From assembly GCA_009914755.4 (NCBI GenBank), contig CP086569.2, forward strand, positions 28,352,001 through 28,416,000: a stretch of 64,000 bases of DNA, in the 5' to 3' direction. Source of the DNA: the human T2T-CHM13v2.0 reference genome, Homo sapiens. The notes under the pieces are model-generated. The model ran no database searches, was not told the origin of the DNA, and saw only the letters and a list, made by a program, of their open reading frames with translations. The position numbers were made by a program, and so were the translations under genes. Below, in pieces: positions 1 to 24,200 of this stretch. Position 1 is the first letter of the stretch. Each line of letters begins with the position of its first letter.

Positions 1-3000
1 AATCGAATGGAAAGTAATCCAATGGAATAGAATCTAATGCAATAAAATCGACTCAGATAGAGTAGAATGTAATGGAATGGAGTGCAGTGCAATGGAATGG
101 AATGGAATGGAATGCAATGGAATGGAATGGAATGGGATGGAATGGTATGGAATGGATAGTAATGGACTGGAGTGAAATGGACTGGAAAGGAATGGACTCA
201 AATTGAAAGGGCTCGAAAGGAATGGAGTCAAATGGAATGGTCTGGAATGGAATGAACACGAATGTAATGCAATCCAATAGAATGGAATCGAATGGCATGG
301 AATATAAAGAAATGGAATCGAAGAGAATGGAAACAAACGGAATGGAATTGAATGGAATGGAATTGAATGGAATGGGAACGAATGGAGTGAAATTGTATGC
401 AGTAGAAGAGAATAGAATGGAATGCAAGCGAAAGGAAAGGAATGGATTGGAATGGAATGGAATTCATTGGAATGGAAGGGAATGTAGTGTAATGGACAGG
501 CCTGGAATAAAGTGGAATGCTACGGTCTCGAATGGAATAAAAATGTATGGAATGGAATGCAATGAAACGGAATCGAATGTCATAGAATGTAATGGAATGC
601 AAAAAAATGGACTCCAAAATCATTGACTGGAAAGGCTGGGTGTCGAAAGGAATTGACTCCAATGGAATGGAATCGAATGGAATGGAAGTGAATAGAATTG
701 AAGTAAAACGAATGGAATGGAATTGATAGGAACGGAATGGAAAGGAATGAAATGATTTGGCATGGAATGGAATCGAATGGCATCGAATGGAATGGAATGG
801 AATGCAATGCAATGGAATGTATTAGAATGTAATGAACTTTAATGGAATGTACTCGAATGGATTCGACTGGAATGGAATGTTCTGGAAGTGAATGGACTCC
901 AATGGAATGGATTGAAAAGGAATGGAATCGTACGGAATGGAATCTAATGGAATGGAATTAAATGGAAATGAATGAAATTGAATAGCACGGAATTGAATTG
1001 AATGGAATCGAATGCAATGGAATCTAATGAAACGGAAAGGAAAGGAATGGAATGGAATGGAATGGGCTGGAATGGAAAGGAATCGAAACGAATGGAATGG
1101 AATCGAACTGAAGAGACTGGAATGGAATGCAGTGGAATGGAAGGGAGTGTAATGGAAGGTTCTCGAAAAAAATGGAATCGAATGGAATGGAATTGAATGG
1201 AACGGAATAGAGTCGAATGGAATTGAATGGAATGGAATGGAGTAGAGAGAAATGGAATCGAACCACAAGGAATGGACAGGAATAGAATGGTCTCGAATTG
1301 AATGGAATCGTATGGAATGGCATCAAACGGAATGGAATGGACAGCCACGGAATGGAATGCACTCGAATACAATGGAGTCGAAACTAATGGACTGGAATAG
1401 AATGGACTCGACTGGTACGGACTCCAATGGAATGGAATCGAATGGAAGGGAATCGAACGGAATGGACTCGAAGGGAAAGGACTGCAATGGAAAGGTCTCG
1501 AATGGAATGGAAATTAATGGAATGGAATGGAATCGAATGAAATGGAGTCAAAAGGAATGGAATCGAATGGCAAGAAATCGAATGTAATGGAATCGCAAGG
1601 AATTGATGTGAACGGAACGGAATGGAATGGAATCCAAAGAAATGGAATAGAATGGAATGGAATCGAATGGAAAGAACTCGAATGGAAATCACTCGAATAG
1701 AATGCAATTTAATAAAATAGGATCAAATGTAATGGAATGGAATGGAAAGGAATCGAAACGAAAGGAATGGAGACAGATGGAATGGAATGGAACAGAGAGC
1801 AATGGTATAGAATGGAATGGAATCATCTGGAATGGAATTGAATGGAATGGAATAATATGAAATGGAATGGAATGGAATGGAATGCCCTTGAATTAAATGG
1901 ACTGGAATGGAATGGACTCGAACAGAGTGGAATGGAAAGTGTTGAGATAGAATGGAATGGACTCCTTTGGAATGGTCTAGTATGCAATGCAATCGACTGG
2001 CAGGGAATCAAAAGGAATGTAATCGAATGGATTGGACTGGAATGCAATGGACTCGAATAGATTGGAAACGGAATGCAAAGGAATGGAATGGAATAGTATG
2101 GAATGGAATGGAAAGGAATGGAGTGGAATAGACTAGAGTGGAATGGAATGGACTCGAAAGCAATGGACTGGAATGGAACTTTCTTGAATGGACTGGAATC
2201 AAACGGAATGGAATGCAATGCAATCAAATGGCATGGAATAAAATAGAATGAAAGAGAATCAAATGGAATTGAATCGAATGCAATCGAATGGATTGGAAAG
2301 GAATAGAATGGAATGGAATGGAATTGACTCAAATGGAATGGACTAGAATGGAATGGATTCGAATGGAAGGCAAAGGAATGGAATCTATTGGAATGGACAG
2401 CAATGGAATGGAAAGGAAGGGATTGGAATGGACTCGAATGGAATGGACTGCAATAGAAAGGATTCGAATGGAATGAAAAAGAATTGAATGGAATAGAACA
2501 GAATGGAATCAAATCGAATGAAATGGAATGGAATAGAAAGGAATGGAATGAAATGGAATGGAAAGGATTCGAATGGAATGCAATCGAATGGAATGGAATC
2601 GAACGGAATGGAATAAAATGGAAGAAAACTGGCAAGAAATGGAATCGAAATGAATGGAGTGTTATGGAACGGACTCCAAAGGAATTGAATGTAATAGAAT
2701 GGAGTGGAGTGGACTCGAATATAATGGACTGGAATGGAATGAAATCACATGGAATGGGAACGAATGGAATGGAATGGAAAGGAATGGAATCGAATGGAAA
2801 GGAATCGAATGGAAGGGAATGAAATTGAATCAACAGGAATGGAAGGGAATAGAATAGACGGTAATGGAATGGACTCGAATAGAATGGACACGAATGCTCA
2901 AATTGAATGGACTCGAATGGAATGGAAACGAAAGGAATGTCATCGAATGGAATTGAATCGATTGGAATGAAATCGCATAGAATGGAGTGGAATCAAATGG

Positions 3001-3534
3001 AATTGAATCGAAAGGAAAGGAAGCGAATGGACTGAAATGAAATGGAATGGAATTGAATGGAAAGTAAAGCAATGGAATAGAATGGAACGAAATTTCACGG
3101 AATGGAATCAAACTGAATGGAATCAAATCAATGGAATATAATCAAATGGAATGGAAAGGAATTGAATGGAGTAGATGGGATTGGATGGGATTGGAATGAA
3201 ATGTACTGGAAAGGACTCGAATTTCATGAAACGGAATGGAATGAATTGGAACGGAATGGACTCGAATGGAATGGAATGTCATGGAATGGCATCAAATGGA
3301 ATGGCATCAAATGGAATGGAATCGAATGCAATGGAATGCTATGGAATGGAATGGAATGCATTGGAATGGAATGTCCTCTAATGGAATGGATTCGAGTGGA
3401 ATGGAATCGAATATAATGGAGTCGAATGAAATGGAATTGAAAGGAATGGGATCGAATACAATGGAATATACTGGAATGTAATGTAATGATCTCGAATGTA
3501 ATTGACTGGAATGGAATGTACATGAATGGAATGT
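1..3534 (+). repeat. HOR copy 1 (3534 bp; phase set arbitrarily at motif aatcgaatggaaagtaatccaatggaatagaatctaatgc)
   Basis: The anchor motif starts at 1 and recurs at 3535. Private variants of this copy include gaattgaagtaaaacg at ~686-701. Confidence 0.85.
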
Positions 3535-6500
3535 AATCGAATGGAAAGTAATCCAATGGAATAGAATCTAATGCAATAAAATCGACTCAGATAGAGTAGA
3601 ATGTAATGGAATGGAGTGTAGTGCAATGGAATGGAATGGAATGGAATGCAATGGAATGGAATGGAATGGGATGGAATGGTATGGAATGGATAGTAATGGA
3701 CTGGAGTGAAATGGACTGGAAAGGAATGAACTCAAATTGAAAGGGCTCGAAAGGAATGGAGTCAAATGGAATGGTCTGGAATGGAATGAACACGAATGTA
3801 ATGCAATCCAATGGAATGGAATCGAATGGCATGGAATATAAAGAAATGGAATCGAAGAGAATGGAAACAAACGGAATGGAATTGAATGGAATGGAATTGA
3901 ATGGAATGGGAACGAATGGAGTGAAATTGTATGCAGTAGAAGAGAATAGAATGGAATGCAAGCGATAGGAAAGGAATGGATTGGAATGGAATGGAATTCA
4001 TTGGAATGGAAGGGAATCTAGTGTAATGGACAAGCCTGGAATAAAGTGGAATGCTACGGTCTCGAATGGAATAAAAATGTATGGAATGGAATGCAATGAA
4101 ACGGAATCGAATGTCATAGAATGTAATGGAATGCAAAAATATGGACTCCAAAATCATTGACTGGAAAGGCTGGGTGTCGAAATGAATTGACTCCAATGGA
4201 ATGGAATCGAATGGAATGGAAGTGAATAGAATCGAACTAAATCGAATGGAATGGAATTGATAGGAACGGAATGGAAAGGAATGAAATGATTTGGCATGGA
4301 ATGGAATCGAATGGCATCGAATGGAATGGAATGGAATGCAATGCAATGGAATGTATTAGAATGTAATGAACTTTAATGGAATGTACTCGAATGGATTCGA
4401 CTGGAATGGAATGTTCTGGAAGTGAATGGACTCCAATGGAATGGATTGAAAAGGAATGGAATCGTACGGAATGGAATTAAATGGAAATGAATCAAATTGA
4501 ATAGCACGGAATTGAATTGAATGGAATCGAATGCAATGGAATCTAAAGAAACGCAAAGGAATGGAATGGAATGGAATGGAATGGGCTGGAATGGAAAGCA
4601 ATCGTAACGAATGGAATGGAATCGAACTGAAGAGACTGGAATGGAATGCACTGGAATGGAAGGGAGTGTAATGGAAGGTTCTCGAAAAAAATGGAATCGA
4701 ATGGAATGGAATTGAATGGAACGGAATAGAGTCGAATGGAATTGAATGGAATGGAATGGACTAGAGTGAAATGGAATCGAACCACAAGGAATGGACAGGA
4801 ATAGAATGGTCTCGAATTGAACGGAATCGTATGGAATGGCATCAAACGGAATGGAATGGACAGCCACGGAATGGAATGCACTCGAATGCAATGGAGTCGA
4901 AACTAATGGACTGGAATAGAATGGACTCGACTGGTACGGACTCCAATGGAATGGAATCGAATGGAAGGGAATCGAACGGAACGGACTCGAAGGGAAAAGA
5001 CTGCAATGGAAAGGTCTCGAATGGAATGGAAATTAATGGAATGGAATGGAATCGAATGAAATGGAGTCAAAAGGAATGGAATCCAATGGCAAGAAATCGA
5101 ATGTAATGGAATCGTAAGGAATGGATGTGAACGGAACGGAATGGAATGGAATCCAAAGGAATGGAATAGAATGGAATGGAATCGAATGGAAAGGACTCGA
5201 ATGGAAATCACTCGAATAGAATGCAATTTAATAAAATAGGATGAAATGTAATGGAATGGAATGGAAAGGAATCGAAACGAAAGGAATGGAGACAGATGGA
5301 ATGGAATGGAACAGAGAGCAATGGTATAGAATGGAATGGAATCATCTGGAATGGAATTGAATGGAATGGAATAATATGAAATGGAATGGAATGGAATGGA
5401 ATGCCCTTGAATTAAATGGACTGGAATGGAATGGACTCGAACAGAGTGGAATGGAAAGTGTTGAGATAGAATGGAATGGACTCGTTTGGAATGGTCTAGT
5501 ATGCAATGCAATCGACTGGCAGGGAATCAAAAGGAATGTAATCGAATGGATTGGACTGGAATGCAATGGACTCGAATAGATTGGAAACGGAATGCAAAGG
5601 AATGGAATGGAATAGTATGGAATGGAATGGAAAGGAAAGGAGTGGAATAGACTAGAGTGGAATGGAATGGACTCGAAAGCAATGGACTGGAATGGAACTT
5701 TCTTGAATGGACTGGAATCAAACGGAATGGAATGCAATGCAATCAAATGGCATGGAATAAAATAGAATGAAAGAGAATCAAATGGAATTGAATCGAATGG
5801 AATCGAATGGATTGGAAAGGAATAGAATGGAATGGAATGGAATTGACTCAAATGGAATGGACTAGAATGGAATGGATTCGAATGGAAGGCAAATGAATGG
5901 AATCTATTGGAATGGACTGCAATGGAATGGAATGGAAGGGATTGGAATGGACTCGAATGGAATGGACTGCAATAGAAAGGATTCGAAAGGAATGAAAAAG
6001 AATTGAATGGAATAGAACAGAATGGAATCAAATCGAATGAAATTGAATGGAATAGAAAGGAATGGAATGAAGTGGAATGGAAAGGATTCGAATGGAATGC
6101 AAACGAATGGAATGGAATCGAACGGAATGGAATAAAATGGAAGCAAACTGGCAAGAAATGGAATCGAAATGAATGGAGTGTTATGGAACGGACTCCAAAG
6201 GAATTGAATGTAATAGAATGGAGTGGAGTGGACTCGAATATAATGGACTGGAATGGAATGAAATCACATGGAATGGGAACGAATGGAATGGAATGGAAAG
6301 GAATGGAATCGAATGGAAAGGAATCGAATGGAAGGGAATGAAATTGAATCAACGGGAATGGAAGGGAATAGAATAGACGGTAATGGAATGGACTCGAATA
6401 GAATGGACACGAATGCTCAAATTGAATGGACTCGAATGGAATGGAAACGAAAGGAATGTCATCGAATGGAATTGAATCGATTGGAATGAAATCGCATAGA

Positions 6501-7053
6501 ATGGAGTGGAATCAAATGGAATTGAATCGAAAGGAAAGGAAGCGAATGGACTGAAATGAAATGGAATGGAATTGAATGGAAATTAATGCAATGGAATAGA
6601 ATGGAACGAAATTTCACGGAATGGAATCAAACTGAATGGAATCAAATCAATGGAATATAATCAACTGGAATGGAAAGGAATTGAATGGAGTAGATGGGAT
6701 TGGATGGGATTGGAATGAAATGTACTGGAAAGGACTCGAATTTCATGAAACGGAATGGAATGAATTGGAACGGAATGGACTCGAATGGAATGGAATGTCA
6801 TGGAATGGCATCAAATGGAATGGCATCAAATGGAATGGAATCGAATGCAATGGAATGCTATGGAATGGAATGGAATGCATTGGAATGGAATGTCCTCTAA
6901 TGGAATGGATTCGAGTGGAATGGATTCGAATATAATGGAGTCGAATGAAATGGAATTGAAAGGAATGGGATCGAATACAATGGAATATACTGGAATGTAA
7001 TGTAATGAACTCGAATGTAATTGACTGGAATGGAATGTACATGAATGGAATGT
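3535..7053 (+). repeat. HOR copy 2 (3519 bp)
   Basis: Anchor motif at 3535; next anchor at 7054. Carries a cluster of private SNVs (3966, 4018, 4033, 4140, 4183), including loss of the GGCC site. Confidence 0.85.
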
Positions 7054-10000
7054 AATCGAATGGAAAGTAATCCAATGGAATAGAATCTAATGCTATAAAA
7101 TCGACTCAGATAGAGTAGAATGTAATGGAATGGAGTGCAGTGCAATGGAATGGAATGGAATGGAATACAATGGAATGGAATGGAATGGAATGGAATGGGA
7201 TGGAATGGTATGGAATGGATAGTAATGGACTGGAGTGAAATGGACTGGAAAGGAATGGACTCAAATTGAAAGGGCTCGAAAGGAATGGAGTCAAATGGAA
7301 TGGTCTGGAATGGAATGAACACGAATGTAATGCAATCCAATAGAATGGAATCGAATGGCATGGAATATAAAGAAATGGAATCAAAGAGAATGGAAACAAA
7401 CGGAATGGAATTGAATGGAATGGAATTGAATGGAATGGGAACGAATGGAGTGAAATTGTATGCAGTAGAAGAGAATAGAATGGAATGCAAGCGAAAGGAA
7501 AGGAATGGATTGGAATGGAATGGAATTCATTGGAATGGAAGGGAATGTAGTGTAATGGACAGGCCTGGAATAAAGTGGAATGCTACGGTCTCGAATGGAA
7601 TAAAAATGTATGGAATGGAATGCAATGAAACGGAATCGAATGTCATAGAATGTAATGGAATGCAAAAAAATGGACTCCAAAATCATTGACTGGAAAGGCT
7701 GGGTGTCGAAAGGAATTGACTCCAATGGAATGGAATCGAATGGAATGGAAGTGAATAGAATCGAACTAAATCGAATGGAATGGAATTGATAGGAACGGAA
7801 TGGAAAGGAATGCAATGAATTGGCATGGAATGGAATCGAATGGCATCGAATGGAATGGAATGGAATGCAATGCAATGGAATGTATTAGAATGTAATGAAC
7901 TTTAATGGAATGTACTCGAATGGATTCGACTGGAATGGAATGTTCTGGAAGTGAATGGACTCCAATGGAATGAATTCAAAAGGAATGGAATCGTATGGAA
8001 TGGAATCTAATGGAATGGAATTAAATGGAAATGAATCAAATTGAATAACACAGAATTGAATTGAATGGAATCGAATGCAATGGAATCTAATGAAACGGAA
8101 AGGAATGGAATGGAATGGAATGGAATGGGCTGGAATGGAAAGGAATCGAAACGAATGGAATGGAATCGAACTGAAGAGACTGGAATGGAATGCACTGTAA
8201 TGGAAGGGAGTGTAATGGAAGGTTCTCGACAAAAATGGAATCGAATGGAATGGAATTGAATGGAACGGAATAGAGTCGAATGGAATTGAATGGAATGGAA
8301 TGGACTAGAGTGAAATGGAATCGAACCACAAGGAATGGACAGGAATAGAATGGTCTCGAATTGAATGGAATCGTATGGAATGGCATCAAACGGAATGGAA
8401 TGGGCAGCCACGGAATGGAATGCACTCGAATGCAATGGAGTCGAAACTAATGGACTGGAATAGCATGGACTCGACTGGTACGGACTCCAATGGAATGGAA
8501 TCGAATGGAAGGGAATCGAACGGAATGGACTCGAAGGGAAAAGACTGCAATGGAAAGGTCTCGAATGGAATGGAAATTAATGGAATGGAATGGAATCGAA
8601 TGAAATGGAGTCAAAAGGAATGGAATCGAATGGCAAGAAATCGAATGTAATGGAATCGCAAGGAATTGATGTGAACGGAACGGAATGGAATGGAATCCAA
8701 AGGAATGGAATAGAATGGAATGGAATCGAATGGCAAGGACTGGAATGGAAATCACTCGAATAGAATGCAATTTAATAAAATAGGATGAAATGTAATGGAA
8801 TGGAATGGAAAGGAATCGAAACGAAAGGAATGGAGACAGATGGAATGGAATGGAACAGAGAGCAATGGTATAGAATGGAATGGAATCATCTGGAATGGAA
8901 TTGAATGGAATGGAATAATATGAAATGGAATGGAATGGAATGGAATGCCCTTGAATTAAATGGACTGGAATGGAATGGACTCGAACAGAGTGGAATGGAA
9001 AGTGTTGAGATAGAATGGAATGGACTCGTTTGGAATGGTCTAGTATGCAATGCAATCGACTGACAGGGAACCAAAAGGAATGTAATCGAATGGATTGGAC
9101 TGGAATGCAATGGACTCGAATAGATTGGAAACGGAATGCAAAGGAATGGAATGGAATAGTATGGAATGGAATGGAAAGGAATGGAGTGGAATAGACTAGA
9201 GTGGAATGGAATGGACTCGAAAGCAATGGACTGGAATGGAACTTTCTTGAATGGACTGGAATCAAACGGAATGGAATGCAATGCAATCAAATGGCATGGA
9301 ATAAAATAGAATGAAAGAGAATCAAATGGAATTGAATCGAATGGAATCGAATGGATTGGAAAGGAATAGAATGGAATGGAATGGAATTGACTCAAATGGA
9401 ATGGACTAGAATGGAATGGATTCGAATGGAAGGCAAAGGAATGGAATCTATTGGAATGGACTGCAATGGAATGGAATGGAAGGGATTGGAATGGACTCGA
9501 ATGGAATGGACTGCAATAGAAAGGATTCGAATGGAATGAAAAAGAATTGAATGGAATAGAACAGAATGGAATCAAATCGAATGAAATGGAATGGAATAGA
9601 AAGGAATGGAATGAAATGGAATGGAAAGGATTCGAATGGAATGCAATCGAATGGAATGGAATCGAACGGAATGGAATAAAATGGAAGAAAACTGGTAAGA
9701 AATGGAATCGAAATGAATGGAGTGTTATGGAACGGACTTCAAAGGAATTGAATGTAATAGAATGGAGTGGAGTGGACTCGAATATAATGGACTGGAATGG
9801 AATGAAATCACATGGAATGGGAACGAATGGAATGGAATGGAAAGGAATGGAATCGAATGGAAAGGAATCGAATGGAAGGGAATGAAATTGAATCAACAGG
9901 AATGGAAGGGAATAGAATAGACGGTAATGGAATGGACTCGAATAGAATGGACACGAATGCTCAAATTGAATGGACTCGAATGGAATGGAAACGAAAGGAA

Positions 10001-10597
10001 TGTCATCGAATGGAATTGAATCGATTGGAATGAAATCGCATAGAATGGAGTGGAATCAAATGGAATTGAATCGAAAGGAAAGGAAGCGAATGGACTGAAA
10101 TGAAATGGAATGGAATTGAATGGAAAGTAAAGCAATGGAATAGAATGGAACGAAATTTCACGGAATGGAATCAAACTGAATGGAATCAAATCAATGGAAT
10201 ATAATCAAATGGAATGGAAAGGAATTGAATGGAGTAGATGGGATTGGATGGGATTGGAATGAAATGTACTGGAAAGGACTCGAATTTCATGAAACGGAAT
10301 GGAATGAATTGGAATGGAATTCACTCGAATGGAATGGAATGTCATGGAATGGCATCAAATGGAATGGCATCAAATGGAATGGAATCGAATGCAATGGAAT
10401 GCTATGGAATGGAATGGAATGCATTGGAATGGAATGTCCTCTAATGGAATGGATTCGAGTGGAATGGAATCGAATATAATGGAGTCGAATGAAATGGAAT
10501 TGAAAGGAATGGGATCGAATACAATGGAATATACTGGAATGTAATGTAATGAACTCGAATGTAATTGACTGGAATGGAATGTACATGAATGGAATGT
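7054..10597 (+). repeat. HOR copy 3 (3544 bp)
   Basis: Anchor motif at 7054 (variant tgctataaaatcg). Identical to copy 5 at an offset of 7083 bp. Confidence 0.85.
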
Positions 10598-13500
10598 AAT
10601 CGAATGGAAAGTAATCCAATGGAATAGAATCTAATGCAATAAAATCGACTCAGATAGAGTAGAATGTAATGGAATGGAGTGCAGTGCAATGGAATGGAAT
10701 GGAATGGAATGGAATGCAATGGAATGGAATGGAATGGAATGGAATGGAATGGGATGGAATGGTATGGAATGGATAGTAATGGACTGGAGTGAAATGGACT
10801 GGAAAGGAATGGACTCAAATTGAAAGGGCTCGAAAGGAATGGAGTCAAATGGAATGGTCTGGAATGGAATGAACACGAATGTAATGCAATCCAATAGAAT
10901 GGAATCGAATGGCATGGAATATAAAGAAATGGAATCGAAGAGAATGGAAACAAACGGAATGGAATTGAATGGAATGGAATTGAATGGAATGGGAACGAAT
11001 GGAGTGAAATTGTATGCAGTAGAAGAGAATAGAATGGAATGCAAGCGAAAGGAAAGGAATGGATTGGAATGGAATGGAATTCATTGGAATGGAAGGGAAT
11101 GTAGTGTAATGGACAGGCCTGGAATAAAGTGGAATGCTACGGTCTCGAATGGAATAAAAATGTATGGAATGGAATGCAAAGAAACGGAATCGAATGTCAT
11201 AGAATGTAATGGAATGCAAAAAAATGGACTCCAAAATCATTGACTGGAAAGGCTGGGTGTCGAAAGGAATTGACTCCAATGGAATGGAATCGAATGGAAT
11301 GGAAGTGAATAGAATCGAACTAAATCGAATGGAATGGAATTGATAGGAACGGAATGGAAAGGAATGAAATGATTTGGCATGGAATGGAATCGAATGGCAT
11401 CGAATGGAATGGAATGGAATGCAATGCAATGGAATGTATTAGAATGTAATGAACTTTAATGGAATGTACTCGAATGGATTCGACTGGAATGGAATGTTCT
11501 GGAAGTGAATGGACTCCAATGGAATGGATTGAAAAGGAATGGAATCGTACGGAATGGAATCTAATGGAATGGAATTAAATGGAAATGAATCAAATTGAAT
11601 AGCACGGAATTGAATTGAATGGAATCGAATGCAATGGAATCTAATGAAACGGAAAGGAATGGAATGGAATGGAATGGAATGGGCTGGAATGGAAAGGAAT
11701 CGAAACGAGTGGAATGGAATCGAACTGAAGAGACTGGAATGGAATGCACTGGAATGGAAGGGAGTGTAATGGAAGGTTCTCGAAAAAAATGGAATCGAAT
11801 GGAATGGAATTGAATGGAACGGAATAGAGTCGAATGGAACTGAATGGAATGGAATGGACTAGAGTGAAATGGAATCGAACCACAAGGAATGGACAGGAAT
11901 AGAATGGTCTCGAATTGAACGGAATCGTATGGAATGGCATCAAACGGAATGGAATGGACAGCCACGGAATGGAATGCACTCGAATGCAATGGAGTCGAAA
12001 CTAATGGACTGGAATAGAATGGACTCGACTGGTACGGACTCCAATGGAATGGAATCGAATGGAAGGGAATCGAACGGAACGGACTCGAAGGGAAAAGACT
12101 GCAATGGAAAGGTCTCGAATGGAATGGAAATTAATGGAATGGAATGGAATCGAATGAAATGGAGTCAAAAGGAATGGAATCCAATGGCAAGAAATCGAAT
12201 GTAATGGAATCGTAAGGAATGGATGTGAACGGAACGGAATGGAATGGAATCCAAAGGAATGGAATAGAATGGAATGGAATCGAATGGAAAGGACTCGAAT
12301 GGAAATCACTCGAATAGAATGCAATTTAATAAAATAGGATGAAATGTAATGGAATGGAATGGAAAGGAATCGAAACGAAAGGAATGGAGACAGATGGAAT
12401 GGAATGGAACAGAGAGCAATGGTATAGAATGGAATGGAATCATCTGGAATGGAATTGAATGGAATGGAATAATATGAAATGGAATGGAATGGAATGGAAT
12501 GCCCTTGAATTAAATGGACTGGAATGGAATGGACTCGAACAGAGTGGAATGGAAAGTGTTGAGATAGAATGGAATGGACTCGTTTGGAATGGTCTAGTAT
12601 GCAATGCAATCGACTGGCAGGGAATCAAAAGGAATGTAATCGAATGGATTGGACTGGAATGCAATGGACTCGAATAGATTGGAAACGGAATGCAAAGGAA
12701 TGGAATGGAATAGTATGGAATGGAATGGAAAGGAAAGGAGTGGAATAGACTAGAGTGGAATGGAATGGACTCGAAAGCAATGGACTGGAATGGAACTTTC
12801 TTGAATGGACTGGAATCAAACGGAATGGAATGCAATGCAATCAAATGGCATGGAATAAAATAGAATGAAAGAGAATCAAATGGAATTGAATCGAATGGAA
12901 TCGAATGGATTGGAAAGGAATAGAATGGAATGGAATGGAATTGACTCAAATGGAATGGACTAGAATGGAATGGATTCGAATGGAAGGCAAATGAATGGAA
13001 TCTATTGGAATGGACTGCAATGGAATGGAATGGAAGGGATTGGAATGGACTCGAATGGAATGGACTGCAATAGAAAGGATTCGAAAGGAATGAAAAAGAA
13101 TTGAATGGAATAGAACAGAATGGAATCAAATCGAATGAAATTGAATGGAATAGAAAGGAATGGAATGAAGTGGAATGGAAAGGATTCGAACGGAATGCAA
13201 ACGAATGGAATGGAATCGAACGGAATGGAATAAAATGGAAGCAAACTGGCAAGAAATGGAATCGAAATGAATGGAGTGTTATGGAACGGACTCCAAAGGA
13301 ATTGAATGTAATAGAATGGAGTGGAGTGGACTCGAATATAATGGACTGGAATGGAATGAAATCACATGGAATGGGAACGAATGGAATGGAATGGAAAGGA
13401 ATGGAATCGAATGGAAAGGAATCGAATGGAAGGGAATGAAATTGAATCAACGGGAATGGAAGGGAATAGAATAGACGGTAATGGAATGGACTCGAATAGA

Positions 13501-14136
13501 ATGGACACGAATGCTCAAATTGAATGGACTCGAATGGAATGGAAACGAAAGGAATGTCATCGAATGGAATTGAATCGATTGGAATGAAATCGCATAGAAT
13601 GGAGTGGAATCAAATGGAATTGAATCGAAAGGAAAGGAAGCGAATGGACTGAAATGAAATGGAATGGAATTGAATGGAAATTAATGCAATGGAATAGAAT
13701 GGAACGAAATTTCACGGAATGGAATCAAACTGAATGGAATCAAATCAATGGAATATAATCAACTGGAATGGAAAGGAATTGAATGGAGTAGATGGGATTG
13801 GATGGGATTGGAATGAAATGTACTGGAAAGGACTCGAATTTCATGAAACGGAATGGAATGAATTGGAACGGAATGGACTCGAATGGAATGGAATGTCATG
13901 GAATGGCATCAAATGGAATGGAATCGAATGCAATGGAATGCTATGGAATGGAATGGAATGCATTGGAATGGAATGTCCTCTAATGGAATGGATTCGAGTG
14001 GAATGGATTCGAATATAATGGAGTCGAATGAAATGGAATTGAAAGGAATGGGATCGAATACAATGGAATATACTGGAATGTAATGTAATGAACTCGAATG
14101 TAATTGACTGGAATGGAATGTACATGAATGGAATGT
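10598..14136 (+). repeat. HOR copy 4 (3539 bp)
   Basis: Anchor motif at 10598. Its 5' part is identical to copy 6; its 3' part is nearly identical to copy 2. Confidence 0.85.
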
Positions 14137-17100
14137 AATCGAATGGAAAGTAATCCAATGGAATAGAATCTAATGCTATAAAATCGACTCAGATAGAGTA
14201 GAATGTAATGGAATGGAGTGCAGTGCAATGGAATGGAATGGAATGGAATACAATGGAATGGAATGGAATGGAATGGAATGGGATGGAATGGTATGGAATG
14301 GATAGTAATGGACTGGAGTGAAATGGACTGGAAAGGAATGGACTCAAATTGAAAGGGCTCGAAAGGAATGGAGTCAAATGGAATGGTCTGGAATGGAATG
14401 AACACGAATGTAATGCAATCCAATAGAATGGAATCGAATGGCATGGAATATAAAGAAATGGAATCAAAGAGAATGGAAACAAACGGAATGGAATTGAATG
14501 GAATGGAATTGAATGGAATGGGAACGAATGGAGTGAAATTGTATGCAGTAGAAGAGAATAGAATGGAATGCAAGCGAAAGGAAAGGAATGGATTGGAATG
14601 GAATGGAATTCATTGGAATGGAAGGGAATGTAGTGTAATGGACAGGCCTGGAATAAAGTGGAATGCTACGGTCTCGAATGGAATAAAAATGTATGGAATG
14701 GAATGCAATGAAACGGAATCGAATGTCATAGAATGTAATGGAATGCAAAAAAATGGACTCCAAAATCATTGACTGGAAAGGCTGGGTGTCGAAAGGAATT
14801 GACTCCAATGGAATGGAATCGAATGGAATGGAAGTGAATAGAATCGAACTAAATCGAATGGAATGGAATTGATAGGAACGGAATGGAAAGGAATGCAATG
14901 AATTGGCATGGAATGGAATCGAATGGCATCGAATGGAATGGAATGGAATGCAATGCAATGGAATGTATTAGAATGTAATGAACTTTAATGGAATGTACTC
15001 GAATGGATTCGACTGGAATGGAATGTTCTGGAAGTGAATGGACTCCAATGGAATGAATTCAAAAGGAATGGAATCGTATGGAATGGAATCTAATGGAATG
15101 GAATTAAATGGAAATGAATCAAATTGAATAACACAGAATTGAATTGAATGGAATCGAATGCAATGGAATCTAATGAAACGGAAAGGAATGGAATGGAATG
15201 GAATGGAATGGGCTGGAATGGAAAGGAATCGAAACGAATGGAATGGAATCGAACTGAAGAGACTGGAATGGAATGCACTGTAATGGAAGGGAGTGTAATG
15301 GAAGGTTCTCGACAAAAATGGAATCGAATGGAATGGAATTGAATGGAACGGAATAGAGTCGAATGGAATTGAATGGAATGGAATGGACTAGAGTGAAATG
15401 GAATCGAACCACAAGGAATGGACAGGAATAGAATGGTCTCGAATTGAATGGAATCGTATGGAATGGCATCAAACGGAATGGAATGGGCAGCCACGGAATG
15501 GAATGCACTCGAATGCAATGGAGTCGAAACTAATGGACTGGAATAGCATGGACTCGACTGGTACGGACTCCAATGGAATGGAATCGAATGGAAGGGAATC
15601 GAACGGAATGGACTCGAAGGGAAAAGACTGCAATGGAAAGGTCTCGAATGGAATGGAAATTAATGGAATGGAATGGAATCGAATGAAATGGAGTCAAAAG
15701 GAATGGAATCGAATGGCAAGAAATCGAATGTAATGGAATCGCAAGGAATTGATGTGAACGGAACGGAATGGAATGGAATCCAAAGGAATGGAATAGAATG
15801 GAATGGAATCGAATGGCAAGGACTGGAATGGAAATCACTCGAATAGAATGCAATTTAATAAAATAGGATGAAATGTAATGGAATGGAATGGAAAGGAATC
15901 GAAACGAAAGGAATGGAGACAGATGGAATGGAATGGAACAGAGAGCAATGGTATAGAATGGAATGGAATCATCTGGAATGGAATTGAATGGAATGGAATA
16001 ATATGAAATGGAATGGAATGGAATGGAATGCCCTTGAATTAAATGGACTGGAATGGAATGGACTCGAACAGAGTGGAATGGAAAGTGTTGAGATAGAATG
16101 GAATGGACTCGTTTGGAATGGTCTAGTATGCAATGCAATCGACTGACAGGGAACCAAAAGGAATGTAATCGAATGGATTGGACTGGAATGCAATGGACTC
16201 GAATAGATTGGAAACGGAATGCAAAGGAATGGAATGGAATAGTATGGAATGGAATGGAAAGGAATGGAGTGGAATAGACTAGAGTGGAATGGAATGGACT
16301 CGAAAGCAATGGACTGGAATGGAACTTTCTTGAATGGACTGGAATCAAACGGAATGGAATGCAATGCAATCAAATGGCATGGAATAAAATAGAATGAAAG
16401 AGAATCAAATGGAATTGAATCGAATGGAATCGAATGGATTGGAAAGGAATAGAATGGAATGGAATGGAATTGACTCAAATGGAATGGACTAGAATGGAAT
16501 GGATTCGAATGGAAGGCAAAGGAATGGAATCTATTGGAATGGACTGCAATGGAATGGAATGGAAGGGATTGGAATGGACTCGAATGGAATGGACTGCAAT
16601 AGAAAGGATTCGAATGGAATGAAAAAGAATTGAATGGAATAGAACAGAATGGAATCAAATCGAATGAAATGGAATGGAATAGAAAGGAATGGAATGAAAT
16701 GGAATGGAAAGGATTCGAATGGAATGCAATCGAATGGAATGGAATCGAACGGAATGGAATAAAATGGAAGAAAACTGGTAAGAAATGGAATCGAAATGAA
16801 TGGAGTGTTATGGAACGGACTTCAAAGGAATTGAATGTAATAGAATGGAGTGGAGTGGACTCGAATATAATGGACTGGAATGGAATGAAATCACATGGAA
16901 TGGGAACGAATGGAATGGAATGGAAAGGAATGGAATCGAATGGAAAGGAATCGAATGGAAGGGAATGAAATTGAATCAACAGGAATGGAAGGGAATAGAA
17001 TAGACGGTAATGGAATGGACTCGAATAGAATGGACACGAATGCTCAAATTGAATGGACTCGAATGGAATGGAAACGAAAGGAATGTCATCGAATGGAATT

Positions 17101-17680
17101 GAATCGATTGGAATGAAATCGCATAGAATGGAGTGGAATCAAATGGAATTGAATCGAAAGGAAAGGAAGCGAATGGACTGAAATGAAATGGAATGGAATT
17201 GAATGGAAAGTAAAGCAATGGAATAGAATGGAACGAAATTTCACGGAATGGAATCAAACTGAATGGAATCAAATCAATGGAATATAATCAAATGGAATGG
17301 AAAGGAATTGAATGGAGTAGATGGGATTGGATGGGATTGGAATGAAATGTACTGGAAAGGACTCGAATTTCATGAAACGGAATGGAATGAATTGGAATGG
17401 AATTCACTCGAATGGAATGGAATGTCATGGAATGGCATCAAATGGAATGGCATCAAATGGAATGGAATCGAATGCAATGGAATGCTATGGAATGGAATGG
17501 AATGCATTGGAATGGAATGTCCTCTAATGGAATGGATTCGAGTGGAATGGAATCGAATATAATGGAGTCGAATGAAATGGAATTGAAAGGAATGGGATCG
17601 AATACAATGGAATATACTGGAATGTAATGTAATGAACTCGAATGTAATTGACTGGAATGGAATGTACATGAATGGAATGT
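14137..17680 (+). repeat. HOR copy 5 (3544 bp)
   Basis: Anchor motif at 14137. Identical to copy 3. Confidence 0.85.
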
Positions 17681-20600
17681 AATCGAATGGAAAGTAATCC
17701 AATGGAATAGAATCTAATGCAATAAAATCGACTCAGATAGAGTAGAATGTAATGGAATGGAGTGCAGTGCAATGGAATGGAATGGAATGGAATGGAATGC
17801 AATGGAATGGAATGGAATGGAATGGAATGGAATGGGATGGAATGGTATGGAATGGATAGTAATGGACTGGAGTGAAATGGACTGGAAAGGAATGGACTCA
17901 AATTGAAAGGGCTCGAAAGGAATGGAGTCAAATGGAATGGTCTGGAATGGAATGAACACGAATGTAATGCAATCCAATAGAATGGAATCGAATGGCATGG
18001 AATATAAAGAAATGGAATCGAAGAGAATGGAAACAAACGGAATGGAATTGAATGGAATGGAATTGAATGGAATGGGAACGAATGGAGTGAAATTGTATGC
18101 AGTAGAAGAGAATAGAATGGAATGCAAGCGAAAGGAAAGGAATGGATTGGAATGGAATGGAATTCATTGGAATGGAAGGGAATGTAGTGTAATGGACAGG
18201 CCTGGAATAAAGTGGAATGCTACGGTCTCGAATGGAATAAAAATGTATGGAATGGAATGCAAAGAAACGGAATCGAATGTCATAGAATGTAATGGAATGC
18301 AAAAAAATGGACTCCAAAATCATTGACTGGAAAGGCTGGGTGTCGAAAGGAATTGACTCCAATGGAATGGAATCGAATGGAATGGAAGTGAATAGAATCG
18401 AACTAAATCGAATGGAATGGAATTGATAGGAACGGAATGGAAAGGAATGAAATGATTTGGCATGGAATGGAATCGAATGGCATCGAATGGAATGGAATGG
18501 AATGCAATGCAATGGAATGTATTAGAATGTAATGAACTTTAATGGAATGTACTCGAATGGATTCGACTGGAATGGAATGTTCTGGAAGTGAATGGACTCC
18601 AATGGAATGGATTGAAAAGGAATGGAATCGTACGGAATGGAATCTAATGGAATGGAATTAAATGGAAATGAATCAAATTGAATAGCACGGAATTGAATTG
18701 AATGGAATCGAATGCAATGGAATCTAATGAAACGGAAAGGAATGGAATGGAATGGAATGGAATGGGCTGGAATGGAAAGGAATCGAAACGAGTGGAATGG
18801 AATCGAACTGAAGAGACTGGAATGGAATGCACTGGAATGGAAGGGAGTGTAATGGAAGGTTCTCGAAAAAAATGGAATCGAATGGAATGGAATTGAATGG
18901 AACGGAATAGAGTCGAATGGAACTGAATGGAATGGAATGGACTAGAGTGAAATGGAATCGAACCACAAGGAATGGACAGGAATAGAATGGTCTCGAATTG
19001 AATGGAATCGTATGGAATGGCATCAAACGGAATGGAATGGACAGCCACGGAATGGAATGCACTCGAATGCAATGGAGTCGAAACTAATGGACTGGAATAG
19101 AATGGACTCGACTGGTACGGACTCCAATGGAATGGAATCGAATGGAAGGGAATCGAACGGAATGGACTCGAAGGGAAAAGACTGCAATGGAAAGGTCTCG
19201 AATGGAATGGAAATTAATGGAATGGAATGGAATCGAATGAAATGGAGTCAAAAGGAATGGAATCGAATGGCAAGAAATCGAATGTAATGGAATCGCAAGG
19301 AATTGATGTGAACGGAACGGAATGGAATGGAATCCAAAGGAATGGAATAGAATGGAATGGAATCGAATGGAAAGGACTCGAATGGAAATCACTCGAATAG
19401 AATGCAATTTAATAAAATAGGATGAAATGGAATGGAATGGAATGGAAAGGAATCGAAACGAAAGGAATGGAGACAGATGGAATGGAATGGAACAGAGAGC
19501 AATGGTATAGAATGGAATGGAATCATCTGGAATGGAATTGAATGGAATGGAATAATATGAAATGGAATGGAATGGAATGGAATGCCCTTGAATTAAATGG
19601 ACTGGAATGGAATGGACTCGAACAGAGTGGAATGGAAAGTGTTGAGATAGAATGGAATGGACTCCTTTGGAATGGTCTAGTATGCAATGCAATCGACTGG
19701 CAGGGAATCAAAAGGAATGTAATCGAATGGATTGGACTGGAATGCAATGGACTCGAATAGATTGGAAACGGAATGCAAAGGAATGGAATGGAATAGTATG
19801 GAATGGAATGGAAAGGAATGGAGTGGAATAGACTAGAGTGGAATGGAATGGACTCGAAAGCAATGGACTGGAATGGAACTTTCTTGAATGGACTGGAATC
19901 AAACGGAATGGAATGCAATGCAATCAAATGGCATGGAATAAAATAGAATGAAAGAGAATCAAATGGAATTGAATCGAATGCAATCGAATGGATTGGAAAG
20001 GAATAGAATGGAATGGAATGGAATTGACTCAAATGGAATGGACTAGAATGGAATGGATTCGAATGGAAGGCAAAGGAATGGAATCTATTGGAATGGACTG
20101 CAATGGAATGGAAAGGAAGGGATTGGAATGGACTCGAATGGAATGGACTGCAATAGAAAGGATTCGAATGGAATGAAAAAGAATTGAATGGAATAGAACA
20201 GAATGGAATCAAATCGAATGAAATGGAATGGAATAGAAAGGAATGGAATGAAATGGAATGGAAAGGATTCGAATGGAATGCAATCGAATGGAATGGAATC
20301 GAACGGAATGGAATAAAATGGAAGAAAACTGGCAAGAAATGGAATCGAAATGAATGGAGTGTTATGGAACGGACTCAAAAGGAATTGAATGTAATAGAAT
20401 GGAGTGGAGTGGACTCGAATATAATGGAGTGGAATGGAATGAAATCACATGCAATGGGAACGAATGGAATGGAATGGAAAGGAATGGATTCGAATGGAAA
20501 GGAATCGAATGGAAGGGAATGAAATTGAATCAACAGGAATGGAAGGGAATAGAATAGACGGTAATGGAATGGACTCGAATAGAATGGACACGAATGCTCA

Positions 20601-21234
20601 AATTGAATGGACTCGAATGGAATGGAAACGAAAGGAATGTCATCGAATGGAATGGAATCGATTGGAATGAAATCGCATAGAATGGAGTGGAATCAAATGG
20701 AATTGAATCGAAAGGAAAGGAAGCGAATGGACTGAAATGTAATGGAATGGAATTGAATGGAAAGTAATGCAATGGAATAGAATGGAACGAAATTTCACGG
20801 AATGGAATCAAACTGAATGGAATCAAATCAATGGAATATAATCAAATGGAATGGAAAGGAATTGAATGGAGTAGATGGGATTGGATGGGATTGGAATGAA
20901 ATGTACTGGAAAGGACTCAAATTTCATGAAACGGAATGGAATGAATTGGAACGGAATGGACTCGAATGGAATGGAATGTCATGGAATGGCATCAAATGGA
21001 ATGGCATCAAATGGAATGGAATCGAATGCAATGGAATGCTGTGGAATGGAATGGAATGCATTGGAATGGAATGTCCTCTAATGGAATGGATTCGAGTGGA
21101 ATGGAATCGAATATAATGGAGTCGAATGAAATGGAATTGAAAGGAATGGGATCGAATACAATGGAATATACTGGAATGTAATGTAATGAACTCAAATGTA
21201 ATTGACTGGAATGGAATGTACATGAATGGAATGT
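17681..21234 (+). repeat. HOR copy 6 (3554 bp)
   Basis: Anchor motif at 17681. Confidence 0.85.
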
Positions 21235-24200
21235 AATCGAATGGAAAGTAATCCAATGGAATAGAATCTAATGCAATAAAATCGACTCAGATAGAGTAGA
21301 ATGTAATGGAATGGAGTGCAGTGCAATGGAATGGAATGGAATGGAATGCAATGGAATGGAATGGAATGGAATGGAATGGAATGGGATGGAATGGTATGGA
21401 ATGGATAGTAATGGACTGGAGTGAAATGGACTGGAAAGGAATGGACTCAAATTGAAAGGGCTCGAAAGGAATGGAGTCAAATGGAATGGTCTGGAATGGA
21501 ATGAACACGAATGTAATGCAATCCAATAGAATGGAATCGAATGGCATGGAATATAAAGAAATGGAATCGAAGAGAATGGAAACAAATGGAATGGAATTGA
21601 ATGGAATGGAATTGAATGGAATGGGAACGAATGGAGTGAAATTGTATGCAGTAGAAGAGAATAGAATGGAATGCAAGCGAAAGGAAAGGAATGGATTGGA
21701 ATGGAATGGAATTCATTGGAATGGAAGGGAATGTAGTGTAATGGACAGGCCTGGAATAAAGTGGAATGCTACGGTCTCGAATGGAATAAAAATGTATGGA
21801 ATGGAATGCAATGAAACGGAATCGAATGTCATAGAATGTAATGGAATGCAAAAAAATGGACTCCTAAATCATTGACTGGAAAGGCTGGGTGTCGAAAGGA
21901 ATTGACTCCAATGGAATGGAATCGAATGGAATGGAAGTGAATAGAATCGAACTAAATCGCATGGAATGGAATTGATACTAACGGAATGGAAAGGAATGCA
22001 ATGATTTGGCATGGAATGGAATCGAATGGCATCGAATGGAATGGAAGGGAATGCAATGGAATGGAATGTATTAGAATGTAATGAACTTTAATGGAATGTA
22101 CTCGAATGGATTCGACTGGAATGGAATGTTCTGGAAGTGAATGGACTCCAATGGAATGGATTGAAAAGGAATGGAATCGTACGGAATGGAATCTAATGGA
22201 ATGGAATTAAATGGAAATGAATCAAATTGAATAGCACGGAATTGAATTGAATGGAATCGAATGCGATGGAATCTAATGAAACGGAAAGGAAAGGAATGGA
22301 ATGGAATGGAATGGGCTGGAAAGGAAAGGAATCGAAACGAGTGGAATGGAATCGAACTGAAGAGACTGGAATGGAATGCACTGGAATGGAAGGGAGTGTA
22401 ATGGAAGGTTCTCGAAAAAAATGGAATCGAATGGAATGGAATTGAATGGAACGGAATAGAGTCGAATGGAATTGAATGGAATGGAATGGACTAGAGTGAA
22501 ATGGAATCGAACCACAAGGAATGGACAGGAATAGAATGGTCTCGAATTGAATGGAATCGTATGGAATGGCATCAAACGGAATGGAATGCACTCGAATGCA
22601 ATGGAGTCGAAACTAATGGACTGGAATAGAATGGACTCGACTGGTACGGACTCCAATGGAATGGAATCGAATGGAAGGGAATCGAACGGAATGGACTCGA
22701 AGGGAAAAGACTGCAATGGAAAGGTCTCGAATGGAATGGAAATTAATGGAATGGAATGGAATCGAATGAAATGGAGTCAAAAGGAATGGAATCGAATGGC
22801 AAGAAATCGAACGTAATGGAATCGCAAGGAATTGATGTGAACGGAACGGAATGGAATGGAATCCAAAGGAATGGAATAGAATGGAATGGAATCGAATGGA
22901 AAGGACTCGAATGGAAATCACTCGAATAGAATGCAATTTAATAAAATAGGATGAAATGTAATGGAATGGAATGGAAAGGAATCGAAACGAAAGGAATGCA
23001 GACAGATGGAATGGAATGGAACAGAGAGCAATGGTATAGAATGGAATGGAATCATCTGGAATGGAATGGAATGGAATGGAATGGAATGGAATGCCCTTGA
23101 ATTAAATGGACTGGAATGGAATGGACTCGAACAGAGTGGAATGGAAAGTGTTGAGATAGAATGGAATGGACTCCTTTGGAATGGTCTAGTATGCAATGCA
23201 ATGGACTGGCAGGGAATCAAAAGGAATGTAATCGAATGGATTGGACTGGAATGCAATGGACTCGAATAGATTGGAAACGGAATGCAAAGGAATGGAATGG
23301 AATAGTATGGAATGGAATGGAAAGGAATGGAGTGGAATAGACTAGAGTGGAATGGAATGGACTCGAAAGCAATGGACTGGAATGGAACTTTCTTGAATGG
23401 ACTGGAATCAAACGGAATGGAATGCAATGCAATCAAATGGCATGGAATAAAACAGAATGAAAGAGAATCAAATGGAATTGAATCGAATGGAATCGAATGG
23501 ATTGGAAAGGAATAGAGTGGAATGGAATGGAATTGACTCAAATGGAATGGACTAGAATGGAATGGATTCGAATGGAAGGCAAAGGAATGGAATCTATTGG
23601 AATGGACAACAATGGAATGGAAAGGAAGGGATTGGAATGGACTCGAATGGAATGGACTGCAATAGAAAGGATTCGAATGGAATGAAAAAGAATTGAATGG
23701 AATAGAACAGAATGGAATCAAATCGAATGAAATGGAATGGAATAGAAAGGAATGGAATGAAATGGAATGGAAAGGATTCGAATGGAATGCAATCGAATGG
23801 AATGCAATCGAACGGAATGGAATAAAATGGAAGAAAACTGGCAAGAAATGGAATCGAAATGAATGGAGTGTTATGGAACGGACTCCAAAGGAATTGAATG
23901 TAATAGAATGGAGTGGAGTGGACTCGAATATAATGGACTGGAATGGAATGAAATCACATGGAATGGGAACGAATGGAATGGAATGGAAAGGAATGGAATC
24001 GAATGGAAAGGAATCGAATGGAAGGGAATGAAATTGAATCAACAGGAATGGAAGGGAATAGAATAGACGGTAATGGAATGGACTCGAATAGAATGGACAC
24101 GAATGCTCAAATTGAATGGACTCGAATGGAATGGAAACGAAAGGAATGTCATCGAATGGAGTTGAATCGATTGGAATGAAATCGCATAGAATGGAGTGGA

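What the first reader, a model, noticed from the sequence alone, without database searches (positions are those of the whole stretch)
4700..18950. Very recent tandem duplication of a two-unit (~7.08-7.10 kb) segment
The segment ~4770-11860 reappears at ~11860-18950. Many shared private variants are reproduced exactly, for example the 279-aa and 336-aa minus-strand ORF artefacts at 8447-9286/15530-16369 and 8886-9896/15969-16979, and the variant tgctataaaatcg at 7081 and 14164. The offset is 7083 bp over ~6900-11500 and 7098 bp over 4770-6800, explained by one 15-bp indel near 6828/13911. Only a handful of single-base differences exist between the copies. Flanking copies at 1-4700 and beyond 18950 are clearly more diverged. 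This shows that the array is currently expanding by multi-unit unequal exchange.
Basis: seen in the sequence. Interest (0 to 1): 0.5.

Follow-up and report, generated by a model that had tools for sequence, protein, structure and literature searches.

The report
Two-unit duplication in human DYZ1 satellite
The window is human Y-chromosome DYZ1 satellite, and the flagged segment is a real, nearly perfect back-to-back duplication of two 3.5-kb repeat units, which is the ordinary, already documented way such satellite arrays turn over.

Summary
Observation confirmed. 4743-11840 (7098 bp) is repeated at 11841-18923 (7083 bp). The copies differ by one substitution (6093 T / 13191 C) and one 15-bp indel, against a median of 70 differences for other two-unit blocks. 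Thirty-five variants private to these units are reproduced in both copies. The junction is a clean recombinant joint inside a 79-bp stretch shared by all three boundaries.

The window is human DYZ1 (HSat3A6, Yq12). It has 3514-3554 bp units built from GGAAT pentamers, one HaeIII site per unit, 38-40% GC and 1 CpG per 35 bp. Eight published DYZ1 primers hit once per unit, and seven of ten published amplicon sizes are reproduced exactly.

The event is not unique. An independent two-unit duplication lies at 48017-62371 (3 substitutions), and a 3.1-kb near-identical one-unit-lag tract lies at 23610-30306.

Best explanation: unequal sister-chromatid exchange, or an equivalent replication-based event, two units out of register. 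With the pedigree-measured Yq12 mutation rate it is about 180 generations old (95% range 5-1000).

"Currently expanding" over-reads the data: only gains leave this footprint, so net growth is not shown. Unequal exchange in Yq12, and de novo 1-2 unit changes in DYZ2, are already published. This is already known and of low interest.

The parts
4743..11840 (.). Event A, copy 1 of the duplicated two-unit block (7098 bp). It keeps the ancestral state at both sites that differ between the copies.
11841..18923 (.). Event A, copy 2 (7083 bp). It carries both derived differences.
11841..11919 (.). Event A junction, the interval within which the exchange occurred. These 79 bp are identical at the left boundary (4743-4821), the junction and the right boundary (18924-19002). 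Upstream markers match the right boundary and downstream markers match the left boundary.
   Evidence: three-way comparison. Informative sites are 4742 T / 11840 C / 18923 C and 4822 C / 11920 C / 19003 T.
18924..19002 (.). Right-hand extension of identity beyond copy 2. This is homology that already existed between units two apart, not part of the duplicated block.
6093..6093 (.). The only substitution between the copies: T here and C at 13191. T is ancestral, being present in all 16 other units and in outside copies. The change in copy 2 creates a CpG.
6800..6829 (.). Tandem doublet of the 15-mer ATGGAATGGCATCAA in copy 1. Copy 2 has a single copy at 13898-13912, a slippage-type 15-bp deletion. 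The doublet is ancestral, being present in 16 of 17 units and in outside copies.
7091..7103 (+). Private variant TGCTATAAAATCG, repeated at 14174-14186. All other units have TGCAATAAAATCG. It is one of 35 private variant columns shared by the two copies.
48017..55084 (.). Event B, copy 1 of a second, independent two-unit duplication (period 7068 bp).
55085..62152 (.). Event B, copy 2. There are three substitutions between the copies (50051/57119, 52960/60028, 53519/60587) and no indel. The junction interval is 55085-55303 (219 bp), and identity extends to 62371.
23610..30306 (.). Event C: 23610-26752 is nearly identical to 27164-30306 (3143 bp, 2 substitutions, offset 3554). The tract is shorter than one period, so it is either a conversion tract or an eroded single-unit duplication. 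Unresolved.
1..64000 (-). The whole window is one DYZ1 (HSat3A6) array of 18 units of 3514-3554 bp. The classic TTCCA/CATTC orientation, and DYZ1 primers 1-4, lie on the minus strand.

Best explanation
The window is part of a human Y-chromosome DYZ1 (HSat3A6) satellite array in Yq12. A block of two adjacent 3.5-kb units (4743-11840) was duplicated head to tail. The most likely route is homologous exchange between sister chromatids paired two units (about 7.1 kb) out of register, resolved inside a 79-bp stretch that was identical in the two misaligned partners. A replication-based template switch or break-induced replication at the same register would give the same product.

After the event, copy 2 gained one T-to-C substitution and lost one copy of a 15-bp tandem doublet by slippage.

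Shown here: the near-identity, the block size, the recombinant junction, the polarity of the two later changes, and the DYZ1 identity. Inferred: the molecular mechanism, the sister chromatid as partner (from the established absence of a homologue for Yq12), and the age.
For: Identity as DYZ1:
- The period is 3514-3554 bp and the repeat is built on GAATG pentamers.
- There is one HaeIII site per unit.
- GC is 38-40% and there is 1 CpG per 34.7 bp. These match the published 38% and 1 per 35 bp.
- Eight published DYZ1 primers hit once per unit in the right orientation. Amplicons of 266, 242, 773, 275, 329, 2056 and 1612 bp are reproduced exactly, and the three long ones differ only by multiples of 5 bp.
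- Collapsed contaminant copies in unrelated 'bacterial' assemblies are 98.2-99.0% identical. The complete-Y paper describes exactly this kind of contamination.

Duplication:
- There is 1 substitution and 1 indel in 7.16 kb, against a median of 70 differences for other two-unit blocks.
- 35 private variant columns are shared by the two copies, against 0-3 in control pairs.
- The identity tract is the period plus 79 bp.
- The three-way marker switch at the junction is clean.
- Event B repeats all of these features with a different junction phase and a different unit type.

Base quality: all indels between units are 5-20 bp multiples of five, with no single-base indels.

Published context:
- Yq12 rearrangement patterns are described as consistent with unequal exchange, and sister-chromatid exchanges in Yq12 were seen in about 15% of Strand-seq libraries.
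- De novo changes of 1-2 whole DYZ2 units occur about once per Y transmission.
Against: - No reads are available, so a false duplication in the assembly cannot be ruled out.
- A gene-conversion tract exactly one period long would give the same three-way pattern.
- Sequence cannot separate crossover from replication-based duplication.
- The de novo structural changes reported in pedigrees were all in DYZ2, not DYZ1.
- The species and the Y-chromosome location are inferred from sequence markers. I could not compare the window with a reference Y assembly.
Confidence: 0.85

Rival explanations
1. Assembly artefact. The assembler falsely duplicated a 7.1-kb stretch of a hard satellite region, so the individual really has only one copy.
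For: Yq12 is the hardest part of the Y to assemble, and published population assemblies carry flagged issues in satellite classes. Near-perfect adjacent copies are what a false duplication looks like.
Against: - The copies are not identical. They differ by a T/C substitution and a 15-bp (three-pentamer) deletion, and neither is a typical homopolymer-type read error.
- The window shows no single-base indels between any units.
- Two further events with their own junctions and their own differences exist in the same 64 kb.
- The junction is a clean homologous joint.
Confidence: 0.07
2. Gene conversion without any change in copy number. A 7.1-kb tract was copied from one two-unit block onto its neighbour, overwriting a previously diverged pair of units.
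For: Interlocus gene conversion is reported in Yq12: 29% of de novo single-base changes match non-orthologous sites in one study, and 17% of events in another. Event C (3143 bp, shorter than a period) and a 1001-bp exact match at 40620/47668 look like conversion-type tracts.
Against: In both event A and event B the near-identical tract equals one full two-unit period plus only 79 or 219 bp. That surplus is what pre-existing homology at about 1% divergence would give. A conversion tract has no reason to match the period twice, and 7 kb is far longer than typical mammalian conversion tracts (general knowledge, not tested here).
Confidence: 0.05
3. There was no single event. DYZ1 here has a stable 7.1-kb two-unit higher-order repeat, and the reader simply saw its periodicity.
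For: Offsets near 7.07-7.10 kb are among the commonest exact-word offsets. Loss of one HaeIII site creates a 7063-bp fragment.
Against: Outside events A and B, units two apart are no more alike than neighbours: 26-49 substitutions at lag 2 against 23-50 at lag 1. There is no odd/even pattern in unit lengths or distances. Divergence rises smoothly with lag, from about 10-11.5 per kb to 13.4 per kb. The high counts at +7068 and +7083 come from the two events themselves.
Confidence: 0.02

Closest known systems
Human DYZ1 / HSat3A6 satellite of Yq12 (classic 3.4-3.56 kb HaeIII male-specific repeat)
   Same: The unit size, pentamer origin, HaeIII periodicity, GC and CpG content, the published primer map, and more than 98% unit-to-unit identity all match.
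   Different: None of the 17 complete units has the modal 3,569-bp length reported for DYZ1. They are 3514-3554 bp, all equal to 4 mod 5 like the canonical unit. No DYZ2 block boundary falls in the window.
Recent tandem duplications in Yq12 attributed to unequal exchange (complete human Y sequence, Rhie et al.; 43 Y assemblies, Hallast et al.)
   Same: The same array type and the same signature of long exact-match off-diagonals. The same proposed mechanism, with local homogenisation in which nearer units are more alike.
   Different: The published examples emphasise very large events, up to 5 Mb and spanning whole DYZ1/DYZ2 blocks. This one is at the smallest scale: two units, 7.1 kb, resolved to a 79-bp junction.
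De novo whole-unit gains and losses in DYZ2 seen in a four-generation pedigree (Porubsky et al. 2025)
   Same: Events of one to two whole repeat units (2,416-4,839 bp) in Yq12 satellite, about one per Y transmission. The scale in units is the same as here.
   Different: Those events were in DYZ2 (HSat1B) and were observed directly between generations. The DYZ1 event here is inferred from one haplotype and is probably hundreds of generations old.
Satellite evolution by unequal crossing-over (Smith-type model; alpha-satellite higher-order repeat arrays)
   Same: Out-of-register homologous exchange creates multi-unit duplications and local homogenisation. This comparison rests on general knowledge.
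   Different: There is no homologue here, so the partner must be the sister chromatid or the same chromatid.

Membership tests
Human DYZ1 / HSat3A6 | Tandem higher-order unit of about 3.5-3.6 kb | tested here: met
   There are 17 complete units of 3514-3554 bp. The literature gives about 3.5-3.6 kb.
Human DYZ1 / HSat3A6 | Built from diverged CATTC/GGAAT pentamers | tested here: met
   Tandem Repeats Finder reports a period-5 GAATG consensus over 65-63993. The top five 5-mers are rotations of GGAAT.
Human DYZ1 / HSat3A6 | One HaeIII (GGCC) site per unit | tested here: met
   There are 17 GGCC sites spaced 3514-3554 bp apart. One unit has lost its site, giving a 7063-bp fragment. HaeIII digestion is how Hallast et al. 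cut DYZ1 into units.
Human DYZ1 / HSat3A6 | Published DYZ1-specific primers present at the published spacing | tested here: met
   Primers DYZ1-1 to DYZ1-8 (PMC3402420, Tables S3 and S7) each hit every unit. Amplicons of 266, 242, 773, 275, 329, 2056 and 1612 bp are reproduced exactly. The 3378, 1564 and 2095 bp amplicons are off by multiples of 5 bp. The 'human DYZ assay' primers of PMC4184833 also match.
Human DYZ1 / HSat3A6 | Base composition of about 38% GC and about 1 CpG per 35 bp | tested here: met
   GC is 0.377-0.397 and there is 1 CpG per 34.7 bp, against the published 38% and 1 per 35 bp.
Human DYZ1 / HSat3A6 | Located in Yq12, alternating with DYZ2 blocks, and male-specific | not testable with these tools
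   No reference Y assembly is available here. The 64-kb window is DYZ1 throughout, which fits DYZ1 blocks of 50 kb to 3.6 Mb but does not show the location.
Tandem duplication by unequal exchange | Adjacent head-to-tail copies far more alike than other pairs at the same lag | tested here: met
   2 differences against a median of 70 and a maximum of 99. 35 shared private columns against 0-3 in controls.
Tandem duplication by unequal exchange | The identity tract equals one period plus only the chance extension expected from flanking homology | tested here: met
   Event A: 7177 bp against a period of 7098, a surplus of 79 bp. Event B: 7287 bp against 7068, a surplus of 219 bp. Background spacing of differences is about 80-100 bp.
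Tandem duplication by unequal exchange | Recombinant junction: markers switch cleanly from right-boundary type to left-boundary type within a stretch of homology | tested here: met
   for event A (six markers of one type, then two of the other, with none mixed). for event B.
Tandem duplication by unequal exchange | Presence/absence polymorphism of the block, or the reciprocal deletion, in related chromosomes; read-level support | not testable with these tools
   No other high-quality Y assemblies or reads could be reached. The one multi-unit outside contig (L010) is too error-rich, with about 50 single-base indels per unit.
Dimeric (7.1-kb) higher-order repeat | Alternate units consistently more alike than adjacent units across the array | tested here: not met
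   The distance matrix shows no odd/even pattern outside the two events. Divergence rises smoothly with lag.
Interlocus gene conversion tract | Tract length unrelated to the repeat period, and no change in unit count | tested here: inconclusive
   The tract lengths of events A and B match the period, which argues against conversion. Event C (3143 bp, less than the 3554 period) fits it. The unit count before the event is unknown.

The most novel reading that the evidence does not exclude
DYZ1 turnover may have a preferred two-unit (about 7.1 kb) exchange register. Both complete recent duplications in this window are exactly two units long, although they have different junctions and involve different unit types. 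That would mean a 7.1-kb higher-order periodicity is emerging or is favoured by chromatin or pairing geometry. Two events cannot establish this, and the rest of the window shows no dimer pattern.
Probability: 0.07. Interest if true: 0.3.

Novelty: already known. Interest (0 to 1): 0.1.

Why it matters
It matters little beyond being a tidy worked example. It shows, at single-base resolution, the smallest-scale version of a process already described for Yq12: out-of-register exchange that duplicates whole repeat units, with the junction narrowed to 79 bp and the later changes polarised.

Such young block duplications could serve as lineage markers within Y haplogroups. Counted across complete Y assemblies, they could calibrate DYZ1 unit turnover against the pedigree-measured rates that so far exist only for DYZ2.

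A practical point: this repeat also turns up as human contamination in microbial genome and metagenome records.

Tried and rejected
1. I searched the literature for the two 23-mer primers I recalled as the classic DYZ1 sexing pair (TCCACTTTATTCCAGGCCTGTCC and TTGAATGGAATGGGAACGAATGG). There were no hits in the library, so their attribution rests on memory. They do match once per unit and define a 154-bp amplicon. I relied instead on primers printed in PMC3402420 and PMC4184833.

2. I looked for outside multi-unit DYZ1 sequence to test whether two-unit events are general. The genome-collection hits are collapsed single units of at most 3.6 kb. The only multi-unit metagenome contig held (L010, four units) has about 50 single-base indels per unit and cannot be used.

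3. The unit-alignment lag scan cannot see event B, because the last unit is incomplete. Event B rests on the exact-match map and the three-way comparison.

4. Dimeric higher-order repeat: rejected.

5. Coding potential of the long minus-strand ORFs: rejected. They translate to (HSIPF)n-like low complexity because the pentamer repeat lacks stop codons, and similar ORFs occur in most units.

6. Rfam: no family matched at gathering score.

7. The two post-duplication changes in copy 2 lie only about 0.7 kb apart and are both in the same copy. That hints at mutagenic repair synthesis, but the chance probability is about 0.1 on my own estimate, so I did not pursue it.


Full report
**What the window is**

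The whole 64 kb is one satellite. Tandem Repeats Finder reports a period-5 GAATG array over 65-63993. The composition is flat at 38-40% GC with strong G-over-C and A-over-T skew. A 23-mer anchor cuts the window into 18 units, 17 of them complete, of 3514-3554 bp.

There is one HaeIII site per unit and 1 CpG per 34.7 bp. These values match published descriptions of human DYZ1 (HSat3A6), the Yq12 satellite:
- a unit of about 3.5-3.6 kb derived from CATTC
- 38% GC and 1 CpG per 35 bp
- units cut out by HaeIII
- units more than 98% alike

As a direct membership test I took eight DYZ1 primers and ten stated amplicon sizes from the supplement of PMC3402420. Every primer hits each unit once, in the expected orientation. 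The sizes 266, 242, 773, 275, 329, 2056 and 1612 bp are reproduced exactly. The three long amplicons differ only by multiples of 5 bp. A published 'human DYZ assay' primer and probe set also matches.

Outside sequences agree. A scan of microbial genome contigs with a unit-specific 23-mer found six short contigs filed under unrelated bacteria. They are 98.2-99.0% identical to window units over their full length, and two are single collapsed units with terminal overlaps. The complete-Y paper describes exactly this kind of HSat3 contamination. I could not compare the window with a reference Y chromosome, so the chromosomal location is inferred.

**Checking the observation**

With 200-bp exact words, the longest repeats in the window are 6815-11919 = 13898-19002 (5105 bp, offset 7083), with 4743-6092 and 6094-6823 at offset 7098. 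Global alignment shows that 4743-11919 and 11841-19002 differ by one substitution (6093 T / 13191 C) and one 15-bp indel. The flanks at the same lag diverge by about 1.2-1.4%.

Units 7426-10979 and 14509-18062 are identical, while other unit pairs differ at 13-58 sites. A scan of every phase and lag gives 2 differences for the two-unit block starting at 4743, against a median of 70 and a maximum of 99. That is about 1e-27 by a Poisson yardstick. Thirty-five alignment columns carry a state found only in the two copies, against 0-3 for control pairs.

Minor corrections:
- The private variant TGCTATAAAATCG is at 7091/14174, not 7081/14164.
- The 336-aa ORF is not private, because it recurs in at least seven units.
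- There is one single-base difference, not a handful.

The ORFs are artefacts of a pentamer repeat that has no stop codons.

**Anatomy of the event**

Comparing the three homologous boundaries shows a clean recombinant joint. Upstream of 11840 the junction carries the variants of the right boundary (six informative sites). Downstream of 11920 it carries those of the left boundary. The switch falls inside 79 bp that are identical in all three.

The identity tract is therefore one period plus 79 bp. That is what a duplication gives when the partners already share about 99% identity.

Both differences are derived in copy 2. All 16 other units and four outside copies have T at the substituted site and a tandem doublet of ATGGAATGGCATCAA. 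Copy 2 has C, creating a CpG, and a single 15-mer, which is a slippage-type deletion. All indels among the 17 units are 5, 10, 15 or 20 bp and there are no single-base indels. This points to high base accuracy and makes the two differences credible.

**It is not unique**

A second two-unit duplication lies at 48017-55084 / 55085-62152. Its period is 7068 bp, it has three substitutions and no indel, and identity extends 219 bp further. It shows the same clean marker switch within 55085-55303. Its junction sits at a different place in the unit, and its units differ from those of event A by about 43 substitutions, so it is an independent event.

A third tract, 23610-26752 = 27164-30306, has 2 substitutions at offset 3554. 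It is only 3143 bp long, shorter than one period, and its flanks return to background divergence at once. I leave it unresolved between a conversion tract and an eroded single-unit duplication.

There is no general two-unit periodicity. Lag-2 distances outside the events are no lower than lag-1 distances. Divergence rises gently with lag, from about 10-11.5 to 13.4 per kb, which is the pattern expected from local homogenisation.

**Mechanism**

The best explanation is homologous exchange between sister chromatids paired two units out of register, or an equivalent replication-based template switch. Yq12 has no homologue to pair with, which is established knowledge.

Published work supports this. 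The complete-Y paper describes Yq12 rearrangement patterns as consistent with unequal exchange and reports sister-chromatid exchanges there in about 15% of Strand-seq libraries. A four-generation pedigree found de novo gains and losses of one to two whole DYZ2 units at about one per Y transmission.

Gene conversion would produce the same three-way pattern only if the tract happened to equal the period, and it would have to do so in both events. A false duplication in the assembly cannot be excluded without reads. It is made less likely by the non-homopolymer differences between the copies and by the clean base quality.

**Age**

One substitution in 7162 bp is 1.4e-4. With the pedigree-measured Yq12 rate of 3.86e-7 per bp per generation, this gives about 181 generations, with a 95% Poisson range of 5-1008. 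Event B comes out at about 533 generations. With euchromatic rates the figures are roughly 30 times larger.

The event is therefore recent relative to the array's 1.2% background divergence, but the data do not show that it is current. Deletions leave no comparable footprint, so net expansion cannot be inferred.

**Verdict**

The core interpretation, a recent two-unit tandem duplication of the unequal-exchange type, is supported, while 'currently expanding' is an over-reading. The phenomenon and its mechanism are already described for this satellite, so novelty is 'already known' and interest is low.

The only mildly novel reading left open is a preferred two-unit exchange register, since both complete events are dimers. 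Two events cannot support that.

Noticed in passing
window 48017-62371: A second, independent two-unit tandem duplication: period 7068 bp, three substitutions, no indel, junction within 55085-55303. It is as clean as the flagged one but lies outside the finding's coordinates.
   Followed up: yes
window 23610-26752 and 27164-30306: A 3143-bp near-identical tract at a one-unit lag (offset 3554, 2 substitutions). It is shorter than the period, so it is either a candidate gene-conversion tract or an eroded single-unit duplication.
   Followed up: partly
window 40620-41620 and 47668-48668: A 1001-bp exact match at a two-unit lag (offset 7048). This is far longer than typical exact matches between units and may be a short conversion tract.
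   Followed up: no
window 4028-4050: One unit has lost its HaeIII/StuI site (GGCC to GGCT inside the conserved 23-mer). A HaeIII digest would therefore give a 7063-bp 'dimer' fragment (499 to 7562).
   Followed up: partly
whole window (17 complete units): Every indel between units is 5, 10, 15 or 20 bp, and every unit length equals 4 mod 5. None of the units has the modal 3,569-bp length reported for DYZ1; they are 3514-3554 bp.
   Followed up: partly
window 7972, 10317 and 15055, 17400: Extra EcoRI sites found only in the duplicated unit and its copy. They would act as restriction markers for this duplication.
   Followed up: no
whole window, e.g. 1333, 4852, 11950: The TaqMan probe of a published 'human DYZ assay' (TGGCTGTCCATTCCA) matches exactly in only 10 of 18 units, and the forward primer in 16 of 18. 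Copy-number assays of this kind would undercount units in this block.
   Followed up: no
whole window (unit alignment): Among two-state variable columns, transversions (121) outnumber transitions (79). This is unusual for human single-copy DNA. It may relate to the lowered transition/transversion ratio that the pedigree paper reports for segmental duplications.
   Followed up: no
L001-L006 (e.g. BMRF01000076.1 Actinomadura cremea; CAYVXY010000078.1 Polyangiaceae MAG) and L007-L039: Contigs filed under bacteria, and 33 metagenome stretches, are human DYZ1 at 98-99% identity. Several are single collapsed units with terminal overlaps. This is human Y contamination in public microbial records.
   Followed up: partly
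window 13191 and 13898-13912: Both changes that followed the duplication lie in copy 2, within about 0.7 kb of each other. This could be chance (roughly 0.1 on my own estimate) or a trace of error-prone repair synthesis during the event.
   Followed up: no
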